Virus record (IMG/VR): IMGVR_UViG_3300020477_001105
Coordinates: 32,001-96,000 of that record
DNA: 64,000 bases
Strand: one strand, 5' to 3'
From: a virus
Every line of letters starts with the position of its first letter. Positions within the stretch are counted from its first letter, which is position 1. Under the pieces are notes generated by a model. That model saw only the letters and a list, made by a program, of their open reading frames with translations. It made no database searches and was not told the origin of the DNA. The position numbers and the translations under genes are program-made. Below are positions 1-43,520 of the stretch, piece by piece.

Positions 1-2533
1 CAGGGTCATTAGTTGCATCACCATTTAAAAGAATCGACCCGTTCGCGTTAGATTCTATTTCTAACGGGTAACTACTCGGGGTTCGCCCGATGCCGATGTG
101 ACCACCGTCGGAAATTCGCATGCTCTCAGCACCAGAAGCTTCATTTGCGAAGATTATATTATGACCTGAACTGTGATTATGAGTGAATTTTAAATCATTA
201 GATGTTTGAGATATAGTATGATTTATAGCACTAGAGGTATGAGTTTCACCTAATGTAATTGATCCATTAGCTGTAACATTACCACTGGAACTTAATGTAC
301 CTTTAACAGTAGCTGTTGCTTGACCGAAGCTGTCTCCACCAACAGAGAAGTATGTACCACTACTACCGACATAAAGGTCAGTAGCATCATCTACAGTCGT
401 CCCAGTACTACTATAAAAAGCTAACTTCTTAGCTACACCGGAGTTGATGGTACCAGAACCACCTCCACCTCCACCGCCAGAGCTGGTAAGAACTGTCATC
501 CACGTACCACCTTCATTCTTAGCTTCAATAGTACCGCCATTGTCTCTAATACCATACCCAGACTCTCCAGTTTCAGTATTAAAGTTAATATATTGAGCAC
601 GACCGAGAATTACTTGCTTGCCACTAATTGTTCCATTAACGGTTAATGAATGTGCATGATCAGGCACACAGCCAATAGCCACTGCCCCGGATGTACCTTT
701 CTGGAGTGACATGATTATACCGTCATGCTCGTCATAGAAATCATATCCCATCCCAACAGTATTACCACTAAATGCTAAATTACCTGTAGTAGCATTCTTG
801 GTCATGCTATATAGCTCAGATCCTTTCTGTAGCACTACTAACGGGTCACCATCATTTGTAGGGTCTTCAATATGAAGAGGTGCGATTGGTGAAGTAATTC
901 CAATACCAACATTACCGGATGCATCAACTCGTACTGCTTCTGTGTCAGCAGTACCAAGCGCTAATTGTGAACTAGCTGATGTCGCAAATACACGAGTAAT
1001 GTTATCTGTGTTATCATATCCTACATAACCTGCTCTTACAGTAGAATCGTATAATTCGAAATTCTTATGTCTACCAGTACTATCAATCTTAACTCTCGAA
1101 GTAACATCAGCAACTCCATTAACAGATACATGGCGAGCACTTAATGATTCACTAGCGCTGAGGCAACCAACAACAGATACATTTACATCTGGTGCAGCCG
1201 TTCCTAGGCCGACATTACCGTTATTATCAATTCGAACGCGCTCGAGATCATTAGTCCAGAATGTTAAAGGTCTATTTTCACGGTACCGAACGAGAGCGCA
1301 ATTAAGATCATCATTTACTCCAACAGAAAACCCAGTGGAATCTTCACTATTTGTAAAATGAACATATGAATAATCATTAGCATATATATGAAGAGGGTAG
1401 GCCGGTACGCTAATACCAATACCAACATAATTAGTAGACCCATTCCAGGTCATTATGCTGGTACCGTCCCAATCTTTAACTGCTAATGTATTAGTACCAC
1501 CTTCTAGTTGGAAGTGTTGATTTGAACCAAGTGCTCTTAAATATAAACTACCATATGCACTAATACTTCCTGCGACAGTTAGCATCTGTTCAGGTGTAGT
1601 AGTCCCGATGCCGACGCTACCACCAGTAGTGACAACCATTCTAGTTGAGCTATTAACGTGGTCGTAAAAAGAAAGTACTTGAGCACCTACATCATCATTT
1701 CGCACACTCCACATATCAGCATTGTTCTGTGCGAATGTTAAATTAGTATTTCCACTAGCGCTACTAGCGAGAAGGAGCGTAGGTGCAGCACCTGATACAG
1801 CTAAACCATCACATCTAGCGTCACCAGTTACATCCAGTTTGTAACTTGGTGAAGTTGCCCCCGTGCCTATGCCAACTTTACCGTCAGAATTAATACTGAC
1901 AAAACCTGTGGCGCGTGAAGTATCTGAACCAACATGTATCTTGTTAGTGCCATCAATCCAAAGAAAGTTTATTGCGTTTCCTGCTGCATTCTTCGAACTG
2001 AAAGAGTAATTATTGTCGACTCTGACTTCACCACCTGTAACTTGCAATTTAGTATCCGGCGCAGCAGTCCCAATGCCGACGTTACCACCAGCAAGTATGG
2101 TTACCCGGTCACCCGCACCCCGCTCATAAAATCTCAAACTATCACTAGAATTGTGAGAATACATAGACCACTCAGAAGTAGCATTATATAATTGCAGCTC
2201 AACATTCGATGCATTACCCGCTGACATAATCATCTGCGTCGTTGCATGTCCACCATATAAATGAAGTTTAGCTGCAGGGCTGTTCGTCCCGATGCCGACG
2301 TTACCAGAATTAGTATTAACAATATCATTTGTATTACGAGATACCCAGTGTCCAGAAAGATACTGAGAGCTCATTTGAGTCATGAGCGTGTATGCCTCAC
2401 CGCCCTTTAACCCAGAAGCTGGAATCTTAAAAGTCTGTAGCGTGCCACCGTTATTAATGGTGACTGGAATCAATTCACCACCGTCTGTGTCGTAACTAGC
2501 AGGAATATTGTTTAATTGGCTAATTCTTGGCAT
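1..2533 (-). CDS. Tail fibre/adhesin-like protein with repeated G-x-V-G-I-G modules (runs off the window start; absent from the ORF track)
   Basis: Read by hand from ATG at 2533: MPRISQLNNIPASYDTDGGELIPV...NSGNVGIGTNSPAAKLHLYG. About nine (G)xVGIG-type repeats. ATAAATA late-promoter motif upstream near 2551-2559. Confidence 0.85.
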   Translation of the reverse strand, partial: MPRISQLNNIPASYDTDGGELIPVTINNGGTLQTFKIPASGLKGGEAYTLMTQMSSQYLSGHWVSRNTNDIVNTNSGNVGIGTNSPAAKLHLYGGHATTQMIMSAGNASNVELQLYNATSEWSMYSHNSSDSLRFYERGAGDRVTILAGGNVGIGTAAPDTKLQVTGGEVRVDNNYSFSSKNAAGNAINFLWIDGTNKIHVGSDTSRATGFVSINSDGKVGIGTGATSPSYKLDVTGDARCDGLAVSGAAPTLLLASSASGNTNLTFAQNNADMWSVRNDDVGAQVLSFYDHVNSSTRMVVTTGGSVGIGTTTPEQMLTVAGSISAYGSLYLRALGSNQHFQLEGGTNTLAVKDWDGTSIMTWNGSTNYVGIGISVPAYPLHIYANDYSYVHFTNSEDSTGFSVGVNDDLNCALVRYRENRPLTFWTNDLERVRIDNNGNVGLGTAAPDVNVSVVGCLSASESLSARHVSVNGVADVTSRVKIDSTGRHKNFELYDSTVRAGYVGYDNTDNITRVFATSASSQLALGTADTEAVRVDASGNVGIGITSPIAPLHIEDPTNDGDPLVVLQKGSELYSMTKNATTGNLAFSGNTVGMGYDFYDEHDGIIMSLQKGTSGAVAIGCVPDHAHSLTVNGTISGKQVILGRAQYINFNTETGESGYGIRDNGGTIEAKNEGGTWMTVLTSSGGGGGGGSGTINSGVAKKLAFYSSTGTTVDDATDLYVGSSGTYFSVGGDSFGQATATVKGTLSSSGNVTANGSITLGETHTSSAINHTISQTSNDLKFTHNHSSGHNIIFANEASGAESMRISDGGHIGIGRTPSSYPLEIESNANGSILLNGDATNDP

Positions 2534-40005: not shown

Positions 40006-41010
40006 TAGTACTCTAACTTTTAATCCCGTATGAGTGTTATCTAGAATAAACTTATACGGGATTTCGCTTATATTGAGAGCTACTGCCATATCATTGAAAT
40101 CCTTAAACCGTTTACCGTATTTCTCAGGCCATACGAAAACTCTATGACCTTGTTCCGCCAATTTCAACGTTTTACTCTTACTCGCACTATCCTGCCATTG
40201 AGAGTCTAATACCCATATCTGATCAAAGAAGTTATAGTGTGTTAATTGGTCTCTCTGCTTAGCAGATAGCGATCGATCACTGTTCTCTTGAATCCCTGCA
40301 ACAGCTGTACCATTCCTAACAAAGCACGCATCAATAGGACCTTCGAATATAAACAGATGATCAATATCTGAATTAATATTATTCAGATTAAACAGTGTCT
40401 TTTCGCTGTTAGATTTAGATAGATATTTCGGAAGAGAAGAGTTCGGAACAACAGTTCTACTCTGATAAAACGCTATGTCACCTGACTGGTCATAAAATGG
40501 AATAACTAGTCTATTTTTATGTGTAAAGTCTGTTAAGCTGACGTATAATGACTTAGGTCTATTGACTGCACTATGTAAACGTCTGCTGTGAATTAACTCT
40601 AAGCACATCTTTACAGGTTCATTATCTTTATGGTACTCGACTTGATGTTCATCAAATAAATTGATAGAGTCATGAGGTAATATTTCTGTACTATAATTAG
40701 TGCGGGTATACTTATCTTCAGAAACATCTTCAGGTATTAAATCATAATCTTTCGCTTCATTCATTATCTCCTCATATGTGAGATGACCAACCTCCTTAAT
40801 GAACTTAATAGCATTTCCTGACCAACCACAATTATGGCAATATATAGTACCAGATTTTACGATGTAGTATAGCCGGCGCTTTCTTCCCCAGCTCTTCCCC
40901 TCTTTGCACATAGGGCAACCACCTTCATACACATTAGTTGAGCGCTTAAACTTAACGTAACCGGCTAATTGATGAAACTTTTGAGCAATATAGTCTTCTG
41001 GTAGGACCAT
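39991..41010 (-). CDS. DNA primase (T4 gp61-like)
   Basis: CPMC...YCHNCG zinc finger, RLVIPF, YQSR, PKY, TOPRIM FEGPID, KDFND. Confidence 0.93.
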   Translation of the reverse strand: MVLPEDYIAQKFHQLAGYVKFKRSTNVYEGGCPMCKEGKSWGRKRRLYYIVKSGTIYCHNCGWSGNAIKFIKEVGHLTYEEIMNEAKDYDLIPEDVSEDKYTRTNYSTEILPHDSINLFDEHQVEYHKDNEPVKMCLELIHSRRLHSAVNRPKSLYVSLTDFTHKNRLVIPFYDQSGDIAFYQSRTVVPNSSLPKYLSKSNSEKTLFNLNNINSDIDHLFIFEGPIDACFVRNGTAVAGIQENSDRSLSAKQRDQLTHYNFFDQIWVLDSQWQDSASKSKTLKLAEQGHRVFVWPEKYGKRFKDFNDMAVALNISEIPYKFILDNTHTGLKVRVLLNVT

Positions 41011-41047: not shown

Positions 41048-41425
41048 TTAATGCTTATGCTTACGACCTTCAACCATTACTAGATCTTTGGCAGGAATAT
41101 TCTTCTCAATACCATTGTCCCACTGAACATCATAGTATTCAACTTCACCTTGTTCATTAATAGTATGGTGAGTGACTGTCCCTACAGATTCTTTTTTAGC
41201 GTCAGACCGACGCTTTCGAACTGTTTTCCATCAGTCGTGAGATTTGTGAGAATTATCTTTGGCCTTCTCCTCGACAATGCCTTTCTGGATAAATTGTCCA
41301 GTAGACGGGCAGTACCAATGAGCTTCAACAACAACACGGTCGTAGTACTCGATAGTTCTCAACTTAGGAGTAGAATATTCTCCTGTAAAGGGAGACATAA
41401 TTTTCTTTGGTTGTACGAAATCCAT
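41048..41425 (-). CDS. Predicted phage selenoprotein, 125 aa, Sec65 encoded by in-frame UGA at 41231-41233
   Basis: MDFVQPKK...NSHKSHD-[UGA]-WKTVRKRRSDAKKESVGTVTHHTINEQGEVEYYDVQWDNGIEKNIPAKDLVMVEGRKHKH-TAA. SECIS-like hairpin follows the UGA. CATAAATA late promoter at 41432-41439. Confidence 0.8.
41184..41224 (-). promoter_or_regulatory. Bacterial-type SECIS element
   Basis: Upper stem AGCGUC-[GGUCU]-GACGCU (41214-41198), with the loop starting 22 nt after the UGA. Lower stem ACAG-UUC / GAA-U-CUGU. Confidence 0.8.
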
Positions 41426-41430
41426 TTTAA

Positions 41431-41793
41431 TTATTTATGCTTTTTGTTATTTTTTCTATACTGTGCCTGGCATACCATATACACATCGGTAGGTAATGGT
41501 TCAATCTCTTCTAATATTTCATTCTGCAATCCATACTCTACATCACTGCGCGGCACTGATCTAACGTGTAAATCCGGTAAAGATAGAAACATATATTGAT
41601 CCTTTCGCTTCTCCATTAAAACAAAGAACTCTCCTCTATAATCACCATGAGCAACAGCATAAACTGTCCGTTCTTTTATACTACCCTTATCGGTACCACT
41701 GGATGGTTTGTTCCAAGCCTTCTTTAAAGTCTTTATAATCGATTTTAGCAATTGAATTAAGTTTATCTGAGTTAATTGAGTACCTAAAGTCAT
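41431..41793 (-). CDS. Hypothetical protein (start uncertain, overlaps the 3' end of rmlB)
   Basis: C-terminal ~85 aa fill the intergenic gap. Possible TTG start near 41752. Confidence 0.55.
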   Translation of the reverse strand: MTLGTQLTQINLIQLLKSIIKTLKKAWNKPSSGTDKGSIKERTVYAVAHGDYRGEFFVLMEKRKDQYMFLSLPDLHVRSVPRSDVEYGLQNEILEEIEPLPTDVYMVCQAQYRKNNKKHK

Positions 41794-42631
41794 GACCTAG
41801 CCTATCATCTACAAACTCAATCAAATCATGAGGTTTTCCGACAATATCTAAGATCAATTTGACCATCTCTATATTCTGAATCTCTTTTCCAGATCCAATA
41901 TTATATACTTCTCCCGCTTGACCGTTTTTATATACTTCATATATAGCCTTGCAGTGATCTTCTACGTAAATCCATTCTCTAACATTCTCACCCTTACCGT
42001 AGACAGGAATAGGTTTATCGTTTAATGCATTAGAAATAACTTTAGGAACTAGCTTCTCATCGTGCTGTCTGGGTCCATAATTATTACAGCATCTAGTAGT
42101 TACTACGTCTAACCCGAAAGTCTTATTAAACGATCTAACGATTAAATCCGCTGATGCCTTTGATGCCGAATAAACATTATTAGGTTCTAGAGGGTTACTC
42201 TCTTTAAATGACGGGTCGTCTAAGCCTAATGCACCATATACTTCATCGGTTGATACATGAACAAACCTAGGCACATTATACTCTCTCGCTTTTTGTAAAA
42301 GATTAAACGTTCCATATACATTAGCATCGATAAAAATCTCCGGACCAGTGATACTATTATCTACGTGGCTCTCAGCGGCAAAGTGAAATATAGCCTTCAC
42401 ATTCTCACCATTAAGTGCATCGGCTATGACGCTCTTACTAGTAGCTAAATCACAACACGTAACAACAACCCTGTTATCTTTATAATTTTTTTGTAAGATG
42501 TTACCGATATCAGCAGCATATGTCATCTTGTCGAGCACATGAACAGTACCATCCGTATGGTCACACAAGTAATTGACAAAATTACTCCCGATAAAACCAC
42601 AACCACCTGTTACGATATAATCACGCGTCAT
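41687..42631 (-). CDS. rmlB: dTDP-glucose 4,6-dehydratase
   Basis: VTGGCGFIGSNF, LDKMTYA, HFAAESHVDNSI, VSTDEVYG, YSASK, NNYGP, DRLGHDFRY. Confidence 0.95.
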   Translation of the reverse strand: MTRDYIVTGGCGFIGSNFVNYLCDHTDGTVHVLDKMTYAADIGNILQKNYKDNRVVVTCCDLATSKSVIADALNGENVKAIFHFAAESHVDNSITGPEIFIDANVYGTFNLLQKAREYNVPRFVHVSTDEVYGALGLDDPSFKESNPLEPNNVYSASKASADLIVRSFNKTFGLDVVTTRCCNNYGPRQHDEKLVPKVISNALNDKPIPVYGKGENVREWIYVEDHCKAIYEVYKNGQAGEVYNIGSGKEIQNIEMVKLILDIVGKPHDLIEFVDDRLGHDFRYSINSDKLNSIAKIDYKDFKEGLEQTIQWYR

Positions 42632-43520
42632 ATTTTCTCTCCAAATATGTTCTATATTGACAATTAGGCAGTGAAGAGATTACATTACAAAATTGGTTAT
42701 AGCTAATAAATTCTTTTTTATAGGCGATCTCCTCAACACAACCAATCATCAACCCTGTTCTAGATTGAATGGATTTTACAAACATCGACGCTTCGAACAT
42801 AGCTTCTGGTGCACCGGTATCAAACCAAGCAGCGCTATCTCTAAGCAACTTAACCTTTAGTTTTTTATCCTTGATGTAAAGGTTATTTAAATCCGTAATT
42901 TCAAGTTCACCTCTAGGTGAGGGTTTAAGAGAGCGTGCCTTGCTCACAGCAGAAGAATCATAAAAATATAACCCTGGTACGGCATAATTAGACTTAGGGT
43001 TTGCTGGTTTCTCCTCAATACCTTTAACTCTAACATTTCTCTCATACATGTCAGATGGTCGCTCAAAATCGACAACACCGTATTCTTCCGGGTTAGCCAC
43101 CCTATATCCGAACACGCAATTTTCATTCATCTTACTAATGTACATTAAGTCCTTATAGAAATCCTCTCCGTAAAAGATATTATCACCCAGTGCTAATGCA
43201 CACGGGTCACCTTTAAGAAATCCAACGTTCTCAGCAATTAAAAATGCTTCTGCAATGCCATTAGGTACGTCTTGTGTTGCGTACTCAATATTCATACCCC
43301 AGTCATTACCATTACCCAGAGTGCTATTAAACTGTAATATCTGATCAGGCGATGATATAATTAATACATCTCTGATGACAGCTGACATCAAGGACGCTAG
43401 CGGATAATAAATCATAGGCTTATCATACACTGGCAATAGCTGCTTATTGACACCAGCGGTCATAGGATACAACCTCGTACCCTTTCCGCCTGCTAGAATG
43501 ATTCCTTTTCTGTAACCCAT
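42621..43520 (-). CDS. rmlA: Glucose-1-phosphate thymidylyltransferase
   Basis: GIILAGGKGTRLYP, KQLLPVYDKPMIYYP, LGDNIFYG, EEKP, RGELEITD, WFDTG. Confidence 0.96.
   Translation of the reverse strand: MGYRKGIILAGGKGTRLYPMTAGVNKQLLPVYDKPMIYYPLASLMSAVIRDVLIISSPDQILQFNSTLGNGNDWGMNIEYATQDVPNGIAEAFLIAENVGFLKGDPCALALGDNIFYGEDFYKDLMYISKMNENCVFGYRVANPEEYGVVDFERPSDMYERNVRVKGIEEKPANPKSNYAVPGLYFYDSSAVSKARSLKPSPRGELEITDLNNLYIKDKKLKVKLLRDSAAWFDTGAPEAMFEASMFVKSIQSRTGLMIGCVEEIAYKKEFISYNQFCNVISSLPNCQYRTYLERKYDA

What the first reader, a model, noticed from the sequence alone, without database searches (positions are those of the whole stretch)
41048..41439. Hidden phage selenoprotein: in-frame UGA in an H-D-U motif with a bacterial SECIS hairpin, under a late promoter
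Seen in sequence: the 64-aa ORF ends ...SHKSHD at TGA (41233-41231), but the frame stays open for 60 more codons (WKTVRKRRSDAKKESVGTVTHHTINEQGEVEYYDVQWDNGIEKNIPAKDLVMVEGRKHKH) to TAA at 41048. This fills the otherwise empty gap before primase. The extension has no usable in-frame start, and the ATG overlapping the TGA is in another frame and stops after 9 codons. The loop of a perfect 6-bp stem, AGCGUC-GGUCU-GACGCU, begins 22 nt after the UGA, on a lower stem ACAG-UUC/GAA-U-CUGU. Established knowledge: bacterial SECIS elements lie just 3' of the Sec UGA with a G early in the apical loop, and E. coli fdhF has GCA-GGUC-UGC. From memory (unverified), T4-like aquatic phages carry a domain H-x-C...H-T-x-x-E-x-G-x-V-x-x-Y-D-V...G-I-E...H-x-H with Cys where this UGA falls. 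Inference: the phage uses host SelB/tRNA-Sec to make a 125-aa Sec/His-rich, possibly metal-binding or redox, late protein. A 64-aa form would result when selenium is scarce, giving a selenium-dependent two-product switch.
Basis: partly seen in the sequence, partly recalled or inferred. Interest (0 to 1): 0.96.

Follow-up and report, generated by a model that had tools for sequence, protein, structure and literature searches.

The report
Phage selenoprotein gene with SECIS hairpin
A small gene of an uncultured marine T4-like phage reads through an internal UGA "stop" that every related phage copy keeps, always followed by a selenocysteine-insertion-type RNA hairpin and at a spot where cyanophage relatives have cysteine, so it most likely encodes a selenium-containing protein, something I found reported for no virus of bacteria.

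Summary
A 64-codon ORF (41425-41234, minus strand) ends at TGA 41233-41231, and the frame stays open for 60 more codons to TAA 41050-41048.

The TGA is neither an error nor a broken gene:
- All 4 close relatives with DNA in hand keep TGA at that codon. So do 37 loci of one distant subfamily and 6 of another; none has TGG.
- The extension is under purifying selection (dN/dS 0.05-0.24).
- TGA is an ordinary stop elsewhere in this genome, and also at the end of 14 of 32 related genes, so this is not a TGA=Trp code.
- In 42 relatives spanning the site, the residue is either Cys (22, including cyanophage isolates) or this UGA. Public databases print it as 'W'.
- Every UGA-type gene has a hairpin matching the published bacterial SECIS model, 20-23 nt after the UGA, with compensatory base changes. 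Four Cys-type cyanophage genes lack it.

Best reading: a phage-encoded selenoprotein made with the host's SelB and tRNA-Sec (confidence about 0.8). The host, selenium incorporation and protein function are untested.

This scan has already reported the same H-x-U family on other phage DNA. I found no paper describing it.

The parts
41048..41425 (-). Whole recoded coding sequence: 125 codons with UGA as codon 65, plus the TAA stop (41050-41048)
   Evidence: Full-length homologues at 63-74% identity. Purifying selection on both sides of the UGA.
41252..41425 (-). N-terminal module (residues 1-58), a separate mobile domain of unknown function
   Evidence: The HMM search finds it alone in 60-66 aa proteins and fused to other C-termini. 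No Pfam or PHROG family. AF2 predicts three strands.
41231..41233 (-). In-frame UGA, candidate Sec codon 65, in the motif H-D-U-W-K-T-V
   Evidence: TGA at the same codon in L001-L004, in 37 loci of the I-I-G-H-T-U-L-T-H-V subfamily and in 6 loci of the H-N-U-A-T-H-M subfamily. Cys is at the aligned column in 22 relatives.
41198..41214 (-). SECIS-like hairpin: 6-bp stem AGCGUC/GACGCU with loop GGUCU, or a 7-bp stem with a G.U closing pair and a GUC loop. 22 nt separate the UGA from the loop.
   Evidence: -7.8 kcal/mol. Kept in all 4 relatives. The closing pair is G-C (3 relatives), A-U (1, at the cost of Arg to Gln) or G.U (window). Synonymous positions are frozen in 4 of 5 hairpin codons, against 9 of 31 elsewhere.
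41051..41248 (-). Sec/Cys domain (residues about 60-125): the H-x-U motif, the hairpin-encoded linker, then a five-stranded small beta-barrel with conserved H87, H123 and H125
   Evidence: Alignment A5. AF2 models. Only generic SH3/KOW/Tudor-like similarity, best Z 5.0. PHROGs 764, 11470 and 22379.
41432..41438 (-). ATAAATA motif 6 nt upstream of the ATG, T4-late-promoter-like. It overlaps the stop codon of the upstream 120-aa gene.
   Evidence: TAAATA lies within 25 nt upstream of 32 of 123 ORFs, against 1.2% background. Function as a promoter was not tested.

Best explanation
The gene at 41425-41048 (minus strand) is one 125-codon coding sequence whose codon 65, UGA, is recoded as selenocysteine. 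The hairpin at 41214-41198, inside the coding sequence, would act as a bacterial-type SECIS. In the infected cell the host elongation factor SelB, loaded with Sec-tRNA(Sec), would bind its G-U-containing apical loop and deliver Sec to the ribosome paused at the UGA 22 nt upstream. Ribosomes that fail to do so would release a 64-aa fragment. The product has an N-terminal module of unknown role and a C-terminal small beta-barrel domain. In that domain Sec sits in an H-x-U motif next to conserved histidines (H63, H87, H123, H125), which suggests a metal-binding or redox centre. Shown here: conservation of the UGA, Cys at the same column in relatives, a covarying hairpin specific to UGA-type genes, translation of the extension, and normal use of TGA as a stop elsewhere. 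Inferred: SelB dependence, selenium incorporation, the metal or redox role, and late expression.
For: (1) UGA conservation. TGA sits at the same codon in 4 of 4 close relatives with DNA, in 37 loci of a distant subfamily and in 6 of 6 loci of a third subfamily. Together these give 31 distinct sites after removing duplicates, and none has TGG. (2) Cys/Sec pair. Among 42 relatives spanning the site, the column holds only Cys (22) or the UGA printed as 'W' (19, plus the window), and H63 is invariant. Four cyanophage isolates have TGT or TGC there. (3) Translation. dN/dS downstream of the UGA is 0.05-0.24, with dS 0.4-2.2. (4) Hairpin. All 31 distinct UGA-type sites have a stem of at least 5 bp with G in the first two loop positions, 20-23 nt after the UGA, at -5.0 to -9.0 kcal/mol. 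Only 3% of TGA trinucleotides in this genome reach -5 and 0.74% reach -7.5. The loops are N1-G-[G/U]-N-N2 with N1 and N2 pairing, which is the pattern of the published bSECIS model (PMC13188914). (5) Covariation. In 26 distinct sequences the six core pairs are 100% paired. Three of them switch type (AU/GC/GU, CG/AU and GU/GC/AU), giving 14 double-change cells against 4.5 +/- 1.5 in shuffles (0 of 500). In the window's own subfamily the closing pair is G-C, A-U or G.U. The three subfamilies have different stem sequences but the same geometry. (6) Not a code change. TGA ends 30 of 116 ORFs here, with extensions as short as those after TAA and TAG. 14 of 32 related genes themselves end in TGA, at the length where others end in TAA or TAG. 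No tRNA is encoded in this genome. (7) Cys-type genes lack the hairpin. (8) The UGA-type sequences form one side of a single branch (support 94/84), with internal branch lengths up to about 1 substitution per site, so the UGA has been kept through deep divergence.
Against: There is no experimental evidence. The host is unknown, so presence of selA/selB/selC/selD cannot be checked. Neither this 53%-complete genome nor four large related contigs encode tRNA-Sec, SelD or SelB. No isolated phage carries a UGA-type gene. Rfam gives no SECIS hit, although Rfam covers bacterial SECIS poorly. Whole 64-75 nt folds are not significantly more stable than shuffles (z -0.6 to -1.8), and only about a third of the hairpins reach -7.5 kcal/mol as bare stems. 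The window's own subfamily has only five DNA sequences and one covarying pair. The Cys/UGA split in the tree may be partly driven by the site itself and by the hairpin-encoded segment. The window subfamily lacks the His at position 68 that most relatives have. The fold gives no functional clue.
Confidence: 0.8

Rival explanations
1. Programmed stop-codon readthrough: a fraction of ribosomes read UGA with a near-cognate tRNA (Trp), helped by the downstream hairpin. This would give a short and a long product in a fixed ratio, as in the Q-beta A1 protein.
For: The UGA and hairpin are conserved, and a hairpin by itself does not say which residue is inserted. No Sec machinery was found on the phage contigs. 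TGA and TGG differ by one base.
Against: The aligned residue in the sister group is an invariant Cys beside an invariant His, never Trp. No natural TGG variant occurs among 31 distinct sites. The base after the UGA is not conserved (U, C, G or A), so there is no shared leaky context. In L003/L004 the short product would be only 23 aa. The hairpin geometry and loop match the SelB-type model.
Confidence: 0.08
2. UGA is read as cysteine rather than selenocysteine, through a SelB-dependent or opal-suppressor tRNA-Cys with a UCA anticodon in the host. Such tRNAs have been proposed for some deltaproteobacteria (PMC5389517).
For: Cys is the residue in homologues. tRNAs of this kind are described in PMC5389517.
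Against: No such tRNA appears in the tRNA clusters examined on related contigs or in this genome. These tRNAs are rare. A plain TGY codon would give Cys at no cost, yet TGA is kept throughout a deep clade.
Confidence: 0.04
3. Two separate genes: translation ends at the UGA and restarts just downstream (termination-reinitiation or a non-canonical start), with the hairpin regulating the coupling.
For: Code-11 gene callers split relatives this way (P0042, P0013, P0043). One subfamily has an in-frame AUG four codons after the UGA.
Against: In the window the first in-frame ATG, GTG or TTG is 52 codons downstream, and the overlapping ATG is out of frame and closes after 9 codons. The H-x motif before the UGA and the x-x-[H/K/T]-V after it form one conserved block, which is continuous in the Cys-type proteins.
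Confidence: 0.04
4. The phage lineage reads every TGA as Trp (genetic code 4 or a suppressor tRNA), as proposed for some recoded phages.
For: Database proteins were translated that way.
Against: TGA ends 26% of ORFs of at least 80 aa here, with a median 5-codon extension like TAA and TAG. 35 of 99 flanking ORFs and 14 of 32 family genes end in TGA. There are no tRNA genes. This is the only TGA site in the genome with open frame on both sides and a strong hairpin.
Confidence: 0.01
5. Sequencing or assembly error, or a recent nonsense mutation (a pseudogene).
For: It is a single base away from TGG or TGY. Raw reads could not be inspected.
Against: The same TGA is present in dozens of independent assemblies at 25-78% protein identity, with purifying selection downstream.
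Confidence: 0.01

Closest known systems
Bacterial selenoprotein genes with an in-ORF SECIS read by SelB (prototype E. coli fdhF; bSECIS consensus as summarised in PMC13188914)
   Same: An in-frame UGA is followed inside the coding sequence by a short stem-loop. Its apical loop carries G-[G/U], 16-37 nt downstream (here 22 nt; fdhF 18 nt with loop GGUC). Cys-containing homologues exist. TGA remains a stop elsewhere.
   Different: The gene is carried by a virus of bacteria and belongs to a virus-only protein family. It is not an oxidoreductase of known type. The Sec machinery would have to be borrowed from an unknown host. Nothing has been tested biochemically.
Cys-type homologues in T4-like cyanophages (e.g. 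P-SSM7 PSSM7_192 'possible cytitidyltransferase', T4-like gene cluster 715; phrog_764, 11470, 22379)
   Same: The same domain: H-x-C/U-x-x-[H/K]-V, H-[T/S]-L-x-E-x-G, Y-D-V, I-P and H-x-H.
   Different: They have TGT or TGC instead of TGA and no SECIS-type hairpin. They lack the basic hairpin-encoded linker. The 'cytidyltransferase' label has no Pfam support and probably comes from a neighbouring or fused gene.
Viral selenoproteins of eukaryotic viruses (molluscum contagiosum GPx1 and fowlpox GPx4 homologues; PMC8310308)
   Same: A virus-encoded UGA is decoded as Sec by host machinery. In fowlpox the SECIS also lies in the coding region.
   Different: Those are captured cellular glutathione peroxidases with eukaryotic SECIS elements. 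This is a bacterial-type SECIS in a phage-specific protein family.
Stop-codon reassignment in phages (TAG=Gln, TGA=Trp; e.g. PMC9523058) and Q-beta A1 UGA readthrough
   Same: A stop codon inside a phage gene is read as sense.
   Different: Here a single codon in a single gene is recoded, marked by a local RNA structure, and TGA works as a stop in the same mRNAs. The homologous residue is Cys, not Trp or Gln.

Membership tests
Bacterial-type selenoprotein gene (Sec-UGA + bSECIS) | In-frame UGA conserved among orthologues, with the frame continuing under purifying selection | tested here: met
   TGA at 31 of 31 distinct sites. dN/dS is 0.05-0.24 downstream.
Bacterial-type selenoprotein gene (Sec-UGA + bSECIS) | Cys-containing homologues with Cys aligned to the UGA (Sec/Cys pair) | tested here: met
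   22 Cys and 19 UGA-as-'W' sequences, and nothing else, at column 65 of A5. TGT or TGC in four cyanophage isolates.
Bacterial-type selenoprotein gene (Sec-UGA + bSECIS) | bSECIS model: 3-9 nt apical loop, 4-16 bp upper stem, G in the first two loop positions, 16-37 nt from the UGA, MFE of -7.5 kcal/mol or lower (PMC13188914 Fig. 2) | tested here: met
   Window: 5-nt loop GGUCU, 6-bp stem, 22-nt spacing, -7.8 kcal/mol for the bare hairpin, and -14.1 for the 64-nt region. All relatives meet the geometry. About a third reach -7.5 as bare stems.
Bacterial-type selenoprotein gene (Sec-UGA + bSECIS) | The RNA structure itself is under selection (covariation) and is absent from Cys forms | tested here: met
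   14 double-change cells against 4.5 +/- 1.5, 0 of 500 shuffles. G-C, A-U or G.U closing pair; no such hairpin in four Cys-type genes.
Bacterial-type selenoprotein gene (Sec-UGA + bSECIS) | Sec machinery (selA, selB, selC, selD) available in the translating cell | not testable with these tools
   The host is unknown. None of these genes is on the phage contigs. No relatives in cellular genomes.
Bacterial-type selenoprotein gene (Sec-UGA + bSECIS) | Selenium actually incorporated at the UGA position | not testable with these tools
   This needs 75Se labelling or mass spectrometry.
Genome-wide TGA=Trp code (table 4 or suppressor tRNA) | TGA absent as a terminator and frequent inside genes | tested here: not met
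phrog_764 ('cytidyltransferase') and related phrog_11470, 22379 | Significant profile match over the domain | tested here: inconclusive
   Read-through protein: E 2.5e-5 over residues 46-125, spanning the UGA. Cys-type relatives: E 1e-16 to 1e-30. No Pfam cytidylyltransferase domain in any member, so the name is not a tested function.
SH3 / KOW / Tudor-like small beta-barrels | Structural superposition with a clear score | tested here: inconclusive
   Best Z is 5.0 (NusG KOW, rmsd 2.2 over 47 residues), tied with many rows. Foldseek gave no hit at E <= 0.001. Models have pLDDT 75-77.

The most novel reading that the evidence does not exclude
A virus-only selenoprotein clade. Sec replaced Cys once in an H-x-C histidine-rich centre and was then kept throughout a wide radiation of marine T4-like and jumbo phages. 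This would make these phages depend on the host's Sec machinery and on selenium supply. Many relatives begin with an amphipathic M-K-...-L-I-x-E-E helix that resembles the T4 capsid-targeting and prohead-protease signal (from memory, untested). The domain may therefore be a packaged, injected virion protein whose dose is gated by selenium availability.
Probability: 0.15. Interest if true: 0.92.

Novelty: new variant of a known kind. Interest (0 to 1): 0.8.

Why it matters
Selenocysteine insertion is well known in cells and in two poxviruses. The reviews and full-text searches available here mention no selenoprotein encoded by a bacteriophage: a 2026 review of the prokaryotic selenoproteome has no occurrence of phage or virus, a 2021 review of viral recoding lists only poxviruses, there were zero hits for phage-selenoprotein phrases, and the family is absent from the GOS selenoprotein datasets.

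If confirmed, the finding would have four consequences:
- It adds a new selenoprotein family whose Sec/Cys pair flags a functional, probably redox or metal-binding, residue in a widespread uncharacterised cyanophage domain.
- It shows that phages can exploit the host SelB pathway, which links phage fitness to selenium availability in the ocean and gives a handle for host prediction (Sec-competent hosts only).
- It exposes a systematic annotation error. These genes are either split in two or translated with Trp in public databases.
- It offers compact natural SECIS variants for recoding work.

Tried and rejected
Trp at the site: the first protein alignment showed W in all homologues, which would have refuted Sec. 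The DNA showed these W are TGA, so that refutation was withdrawn.

Code 4, a suppressor tRNA, a sequencing error, a pseudogene and reinitiation at the overlapping ATG were all rejected.

Searches that led nowhere:
- Rfam at the site gave only chance-level snoRNA and RAGATH rows.
- Viral-contig searches with the window-type protein, alignment and DNA pattern found nothing.
- Genome contigs found no relatives.
- A viral-contig search for the Y-H-T-U-A-T-H-A subfamily found nothing.
- The Cys-type alignment was too diverse for the search for related loci.
- tRNA-Sec model hits on related contigs were ordinary tRNA-Ser and tRNA-Leu.
- selD and selB were absent from five phage records.
- The UGA-type is absent from GenBank phage records.

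Structure and function searches gave no functional lead: Foldseek against PDB and the VIA wide search returned only generic small beta-barrel similarity. Pfam had no family. The ESM Atlas showed only viral 'hypothetical protein' clusters.

Full report
**Observation.** On the minus strand an ATG at 41425 opens a 64-codon ORF that ends ...S-H-K-S-H-D at TGA 41233-41231. The same frame continues for 60 sense codons to TAA 41050-41048, 38 nt before the primase start at 41010. The only ATG near the TGA is out of frame and closes after 9 codons. The first in-frame ATG, GTG or TTG is 52 codons downstream. The hairpin AGCGUC/GGUCU/GACGCU lies at 41214-41198, and 22 nt separate the UGA from its loop.

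**A false refutation, then the turn.** A search with the read-through protein found four metagenomic homologues covering the whole length or the C-terminal two thirds. The DNA of four such loci showed otherwise. Every one has CAC GAC TGA TGG at that place, so the 'W' in the database proteins comes from gene callers that applied a TGA=Trp table to short contigs. Other database entries are the downstream halves of the same kind of gene, called under code 11.

**The UGA is decoded, but not through a code change.** Downstream of the UGA, dN/dS is 0.05-0.24 while synonymous sites are close to saturation (dS 0.4-2.2). The upstream part is also constrained. In this 111.7-kb virus record, TGA ends 30 of 116 ORFs of at least 80 aa. 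The frame after those TGAs closes after a median of 5 codons, as it does after TAA and TAG. No tRNA gene is present. This is the only TGA in the genome with open frame on both sides and a strong hairpin.

**A large family with a Cys/UGA alternation.** A profile search of 1.8 billion representative proteins gave 95 relatives. Among the 42 that span the site, the His two residues upstream is invariant. The site itself is Cys in 22 and 'W' in 19, and nothing else occurs.

- The Cys forms include the T4-like cyanophage proteins annotated 'possible cytitidyltransferase' (P-SSM7 PSSM7_192 and others; phrog_764).
- For the 'W' forms I fetched DNA from IMG/VR. In the I-I-G-H-T-x-L-T-H-V subfamily the codon is TGA in all 37 loci where the motif was found.
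- In the H-N-x-A-T-H-M subfamily the codon is TGA in 6 of 6 loci.
- After removing duplicates there are 31 distinct UGA sites and no TGG.
- 14 of 32 of these genes end in TGA at the same length where their relatives end in TAA or TAG. TGA is therefore a stop in the very same mRNAs.

A maximum-likelihood tree of the domain puts all UGA forms on one side of a single branch (support 94/84), with deep internal divergence. This fits one Cys-to-Sec change that was then retained. The recoded column and the hairpin-encoded segment contribute to that split, however.

**The hairpin.** The 2026 review PMC13188914 gives the bacterial SECIS model:

- an apical loop of 3-9 nt and an upper stem of 4-16 bp;
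- G in the first two loop positions, mostly N1-G-[G/U]-N-N2 with N1 pairing N2;
- 16-37 nt between the UGA and the loop;
- MFE of -7.5 kcal/mol or lower.

The window element fits: loop G-G-U-C-U with a G.U N1/N2 pair, a 6-bp stem, 22-nt spacing, and -7.8 kcal/mol for the bare hairpin. Its four relatives keep the stem, and the N1/N2 pair is G-C, A-U or G.U. The A-U version costs an Arg-to-Gln change. Synonymous positions are frozen in 4 of 5 hairpin codons against 9 of 31 elsewhere, while the 16-nt spacer varies freely.

The two other subfamilies have unrelated stem sequences but the same architecture, with loops A-G-G-R-U and A-G-U-C-U at 19-20 nt. In 26 distinct sequences of the largest subfamily the six core pairs are always paired and three of them switch type. 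That gives 14 double-change cells against 4.5 +/- 1.5 in shuffles (0 of 500), and the encoded amino acids change along with them.

All 31 distinct UGA sites have such a hairpin at -5.0 kcal/mol or better, against 3% of TGA trinucleotides in this genome. Four Cys-type cyanophage genes have none. The E. coli fdhF prototype, checked on MG1655 DNA, has UGA, 18 nt, then GCA-GGUC-UGC.

Some results are weaker. Whole-region folds are not significantly more stable than shuffles. Rfam gives no hit.

**Mechanism.** A conserved UGA, a Cys/UGA alternation beside an invariant His, and a covarying SelB-type hairpin found only in UGA forms together make up the standard computational signature of a bacterial selenoprotein gene. 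I therefore read the gene as a 125-aa selenoprotein made with host SelB, tRNA-Sec, SelA and SelD. That last step is inference. No tRNA-Sec, SelD or SelB is encoded here (the record is 53% complete) or on four related contigs of 141-284 kb. The host is unknown. The family has no relatives in 185,579 species-representative cellular genomes, and no isolated phage has the UGA form.

**Rivals.** Near-cognate Trp readthrough is disfavoured for three reasons: the homologous residue is an invariant Cys, no TGG variant exists, and the base after the UGA is not conserved. Cys insertion by a UCA-anticodon tRNA-Cys (PMC5389517) cannot be excluded, but it is rare and would give no advantage over a TGY codon. 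Reinitiation is excluded in the window by the lack of a start codon.

**The protein.** AF2 models (pLDDT 75-77) show an N-terminal three-stranded module and a five-stranded small beta-barrel. The barrel has only generic SH3/KOW/Tudor-like similarity, with best Z 5.0. There is no Pfam family, and ESM Atlas neighbours are all viral 'hypothetical proteins'.

Conserved H63, U/C65, H87, H123 and H125, plus H68 in most relatives but not in the window subfamily, suggest a metal or redox centre. This is inference. The N-terminal module occurs alone or fused to other domains. In L003/L004 the Sec domain follows only a 23-codon leader. A functional 'short form', and hence a two-product selenium switch, is therefore not the conserved feature.

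The ATAAATA motif 6 nt before the ATG belongs to a class enriched about 20-fold upstream of genes in this phage. That is compatible with a T4-type late promoter, but the motif also overlaps the stop codon of the upstream gene.

**Prior knowledge.** I found no paper describing a phage selenoprotein, and the family's motifs are absent from the GOS selenoprotein datasets. Subscription journals are not covered by that library. Within this scan the same H-x-U family had already been followed up on other phage genomes with the same conclusion.

**Verdict.** This is a new protein family and a new carrier, a virus of bacteria, for a known recoding mechanism. Confidence in Sec is about 0.8. It awaits a SelB- and selenium-dependent reporter assay, mass spectrometry and host identification.

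Noticed in passing
P0002-P0005, P0009 and others; P0013, P0042, P0043, P0046 and others: Public protein databases hold this family in two wrong forms. Some entries are translated with Trp at the recoded UGA (a TGA=W table applied to short contigs). Others are split, with the downstream half called from a start just after the UGA.
   Followed up: yes
whole genome G000; window 41432-41438 (-) for this gene: TAAATA lies within 25 nt upstream of the ATG of 32 of 123 ORFs, against 1.2% of random 25-mers, usually 5-8 nt before the start. Only 26 of 123 ORFs have an SD-like motif. This suggests T4-late-like promoters very close to start codons, possibly leaderless mRNAs.
   Followed up: partly
window 41252-41425 (-): The N-terminal 58 residues (S-P-x-x-G ... 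E-A-x-W-x-C-P-x-x-G-x-F-I-x-K-G) form a mobile module. It is found alone in 60-66 aa proteins and fused to unrelated C-termini, with no Pfam or PHROG family.
   Followed up: partly
P0016, P0018, P0026, P0044, P0054, P0059, P0068, P0073; L003 794-863, L004 760-826: Most other family members, both Cys and UGA type, begin with an amphipathic helix M-K-[I/L]-[T/S]-...-L-...-[L/I]-I-x-E-E. From memory this resembles the T4 capsid-targeting sequence with a prohead-protease site. The window protein lacks it. The idea was not tested.
   Followed up: no
genome G000 5-397 (-), outside the window; L044 630-993 (-): ARAGORN calls a tmRNA with a 27-residue tag at the start of this phage record, and another tmRNA on the 284-kb related contig.
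   Followed up: no
L005-L042 (IMG/VR contigs up to 284 kb): 14 of 32 UGA-type genes end in TGA. One mRNA therefore carries both a recoded and a terminating UGA.
   Followed up: yes
L017 2289-3398 (+): In a 236-kb contig the UGA-type gene lies two genes upstream of a head-tail adaptor-like ORF (phrog_211, E 7e-9). Other neighbours have no annotation. In the window the gene instead sits between sugar-nucleotide genes and primase.
   Followed up: partly
window 41431-43520 (-): Upstream on the same strand are a 120-aa ORF of unknown family, a dTDP-glucose 4,6-dehydratase-like ORF and a glucose-1-phosphate thymidylyltransferase-like ORF, judged from the ORF translations and cyanophage annotation. 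Relatives L001 and L002 share the 120-aa gene / Sec gene / primase order.
   Followed up: partly
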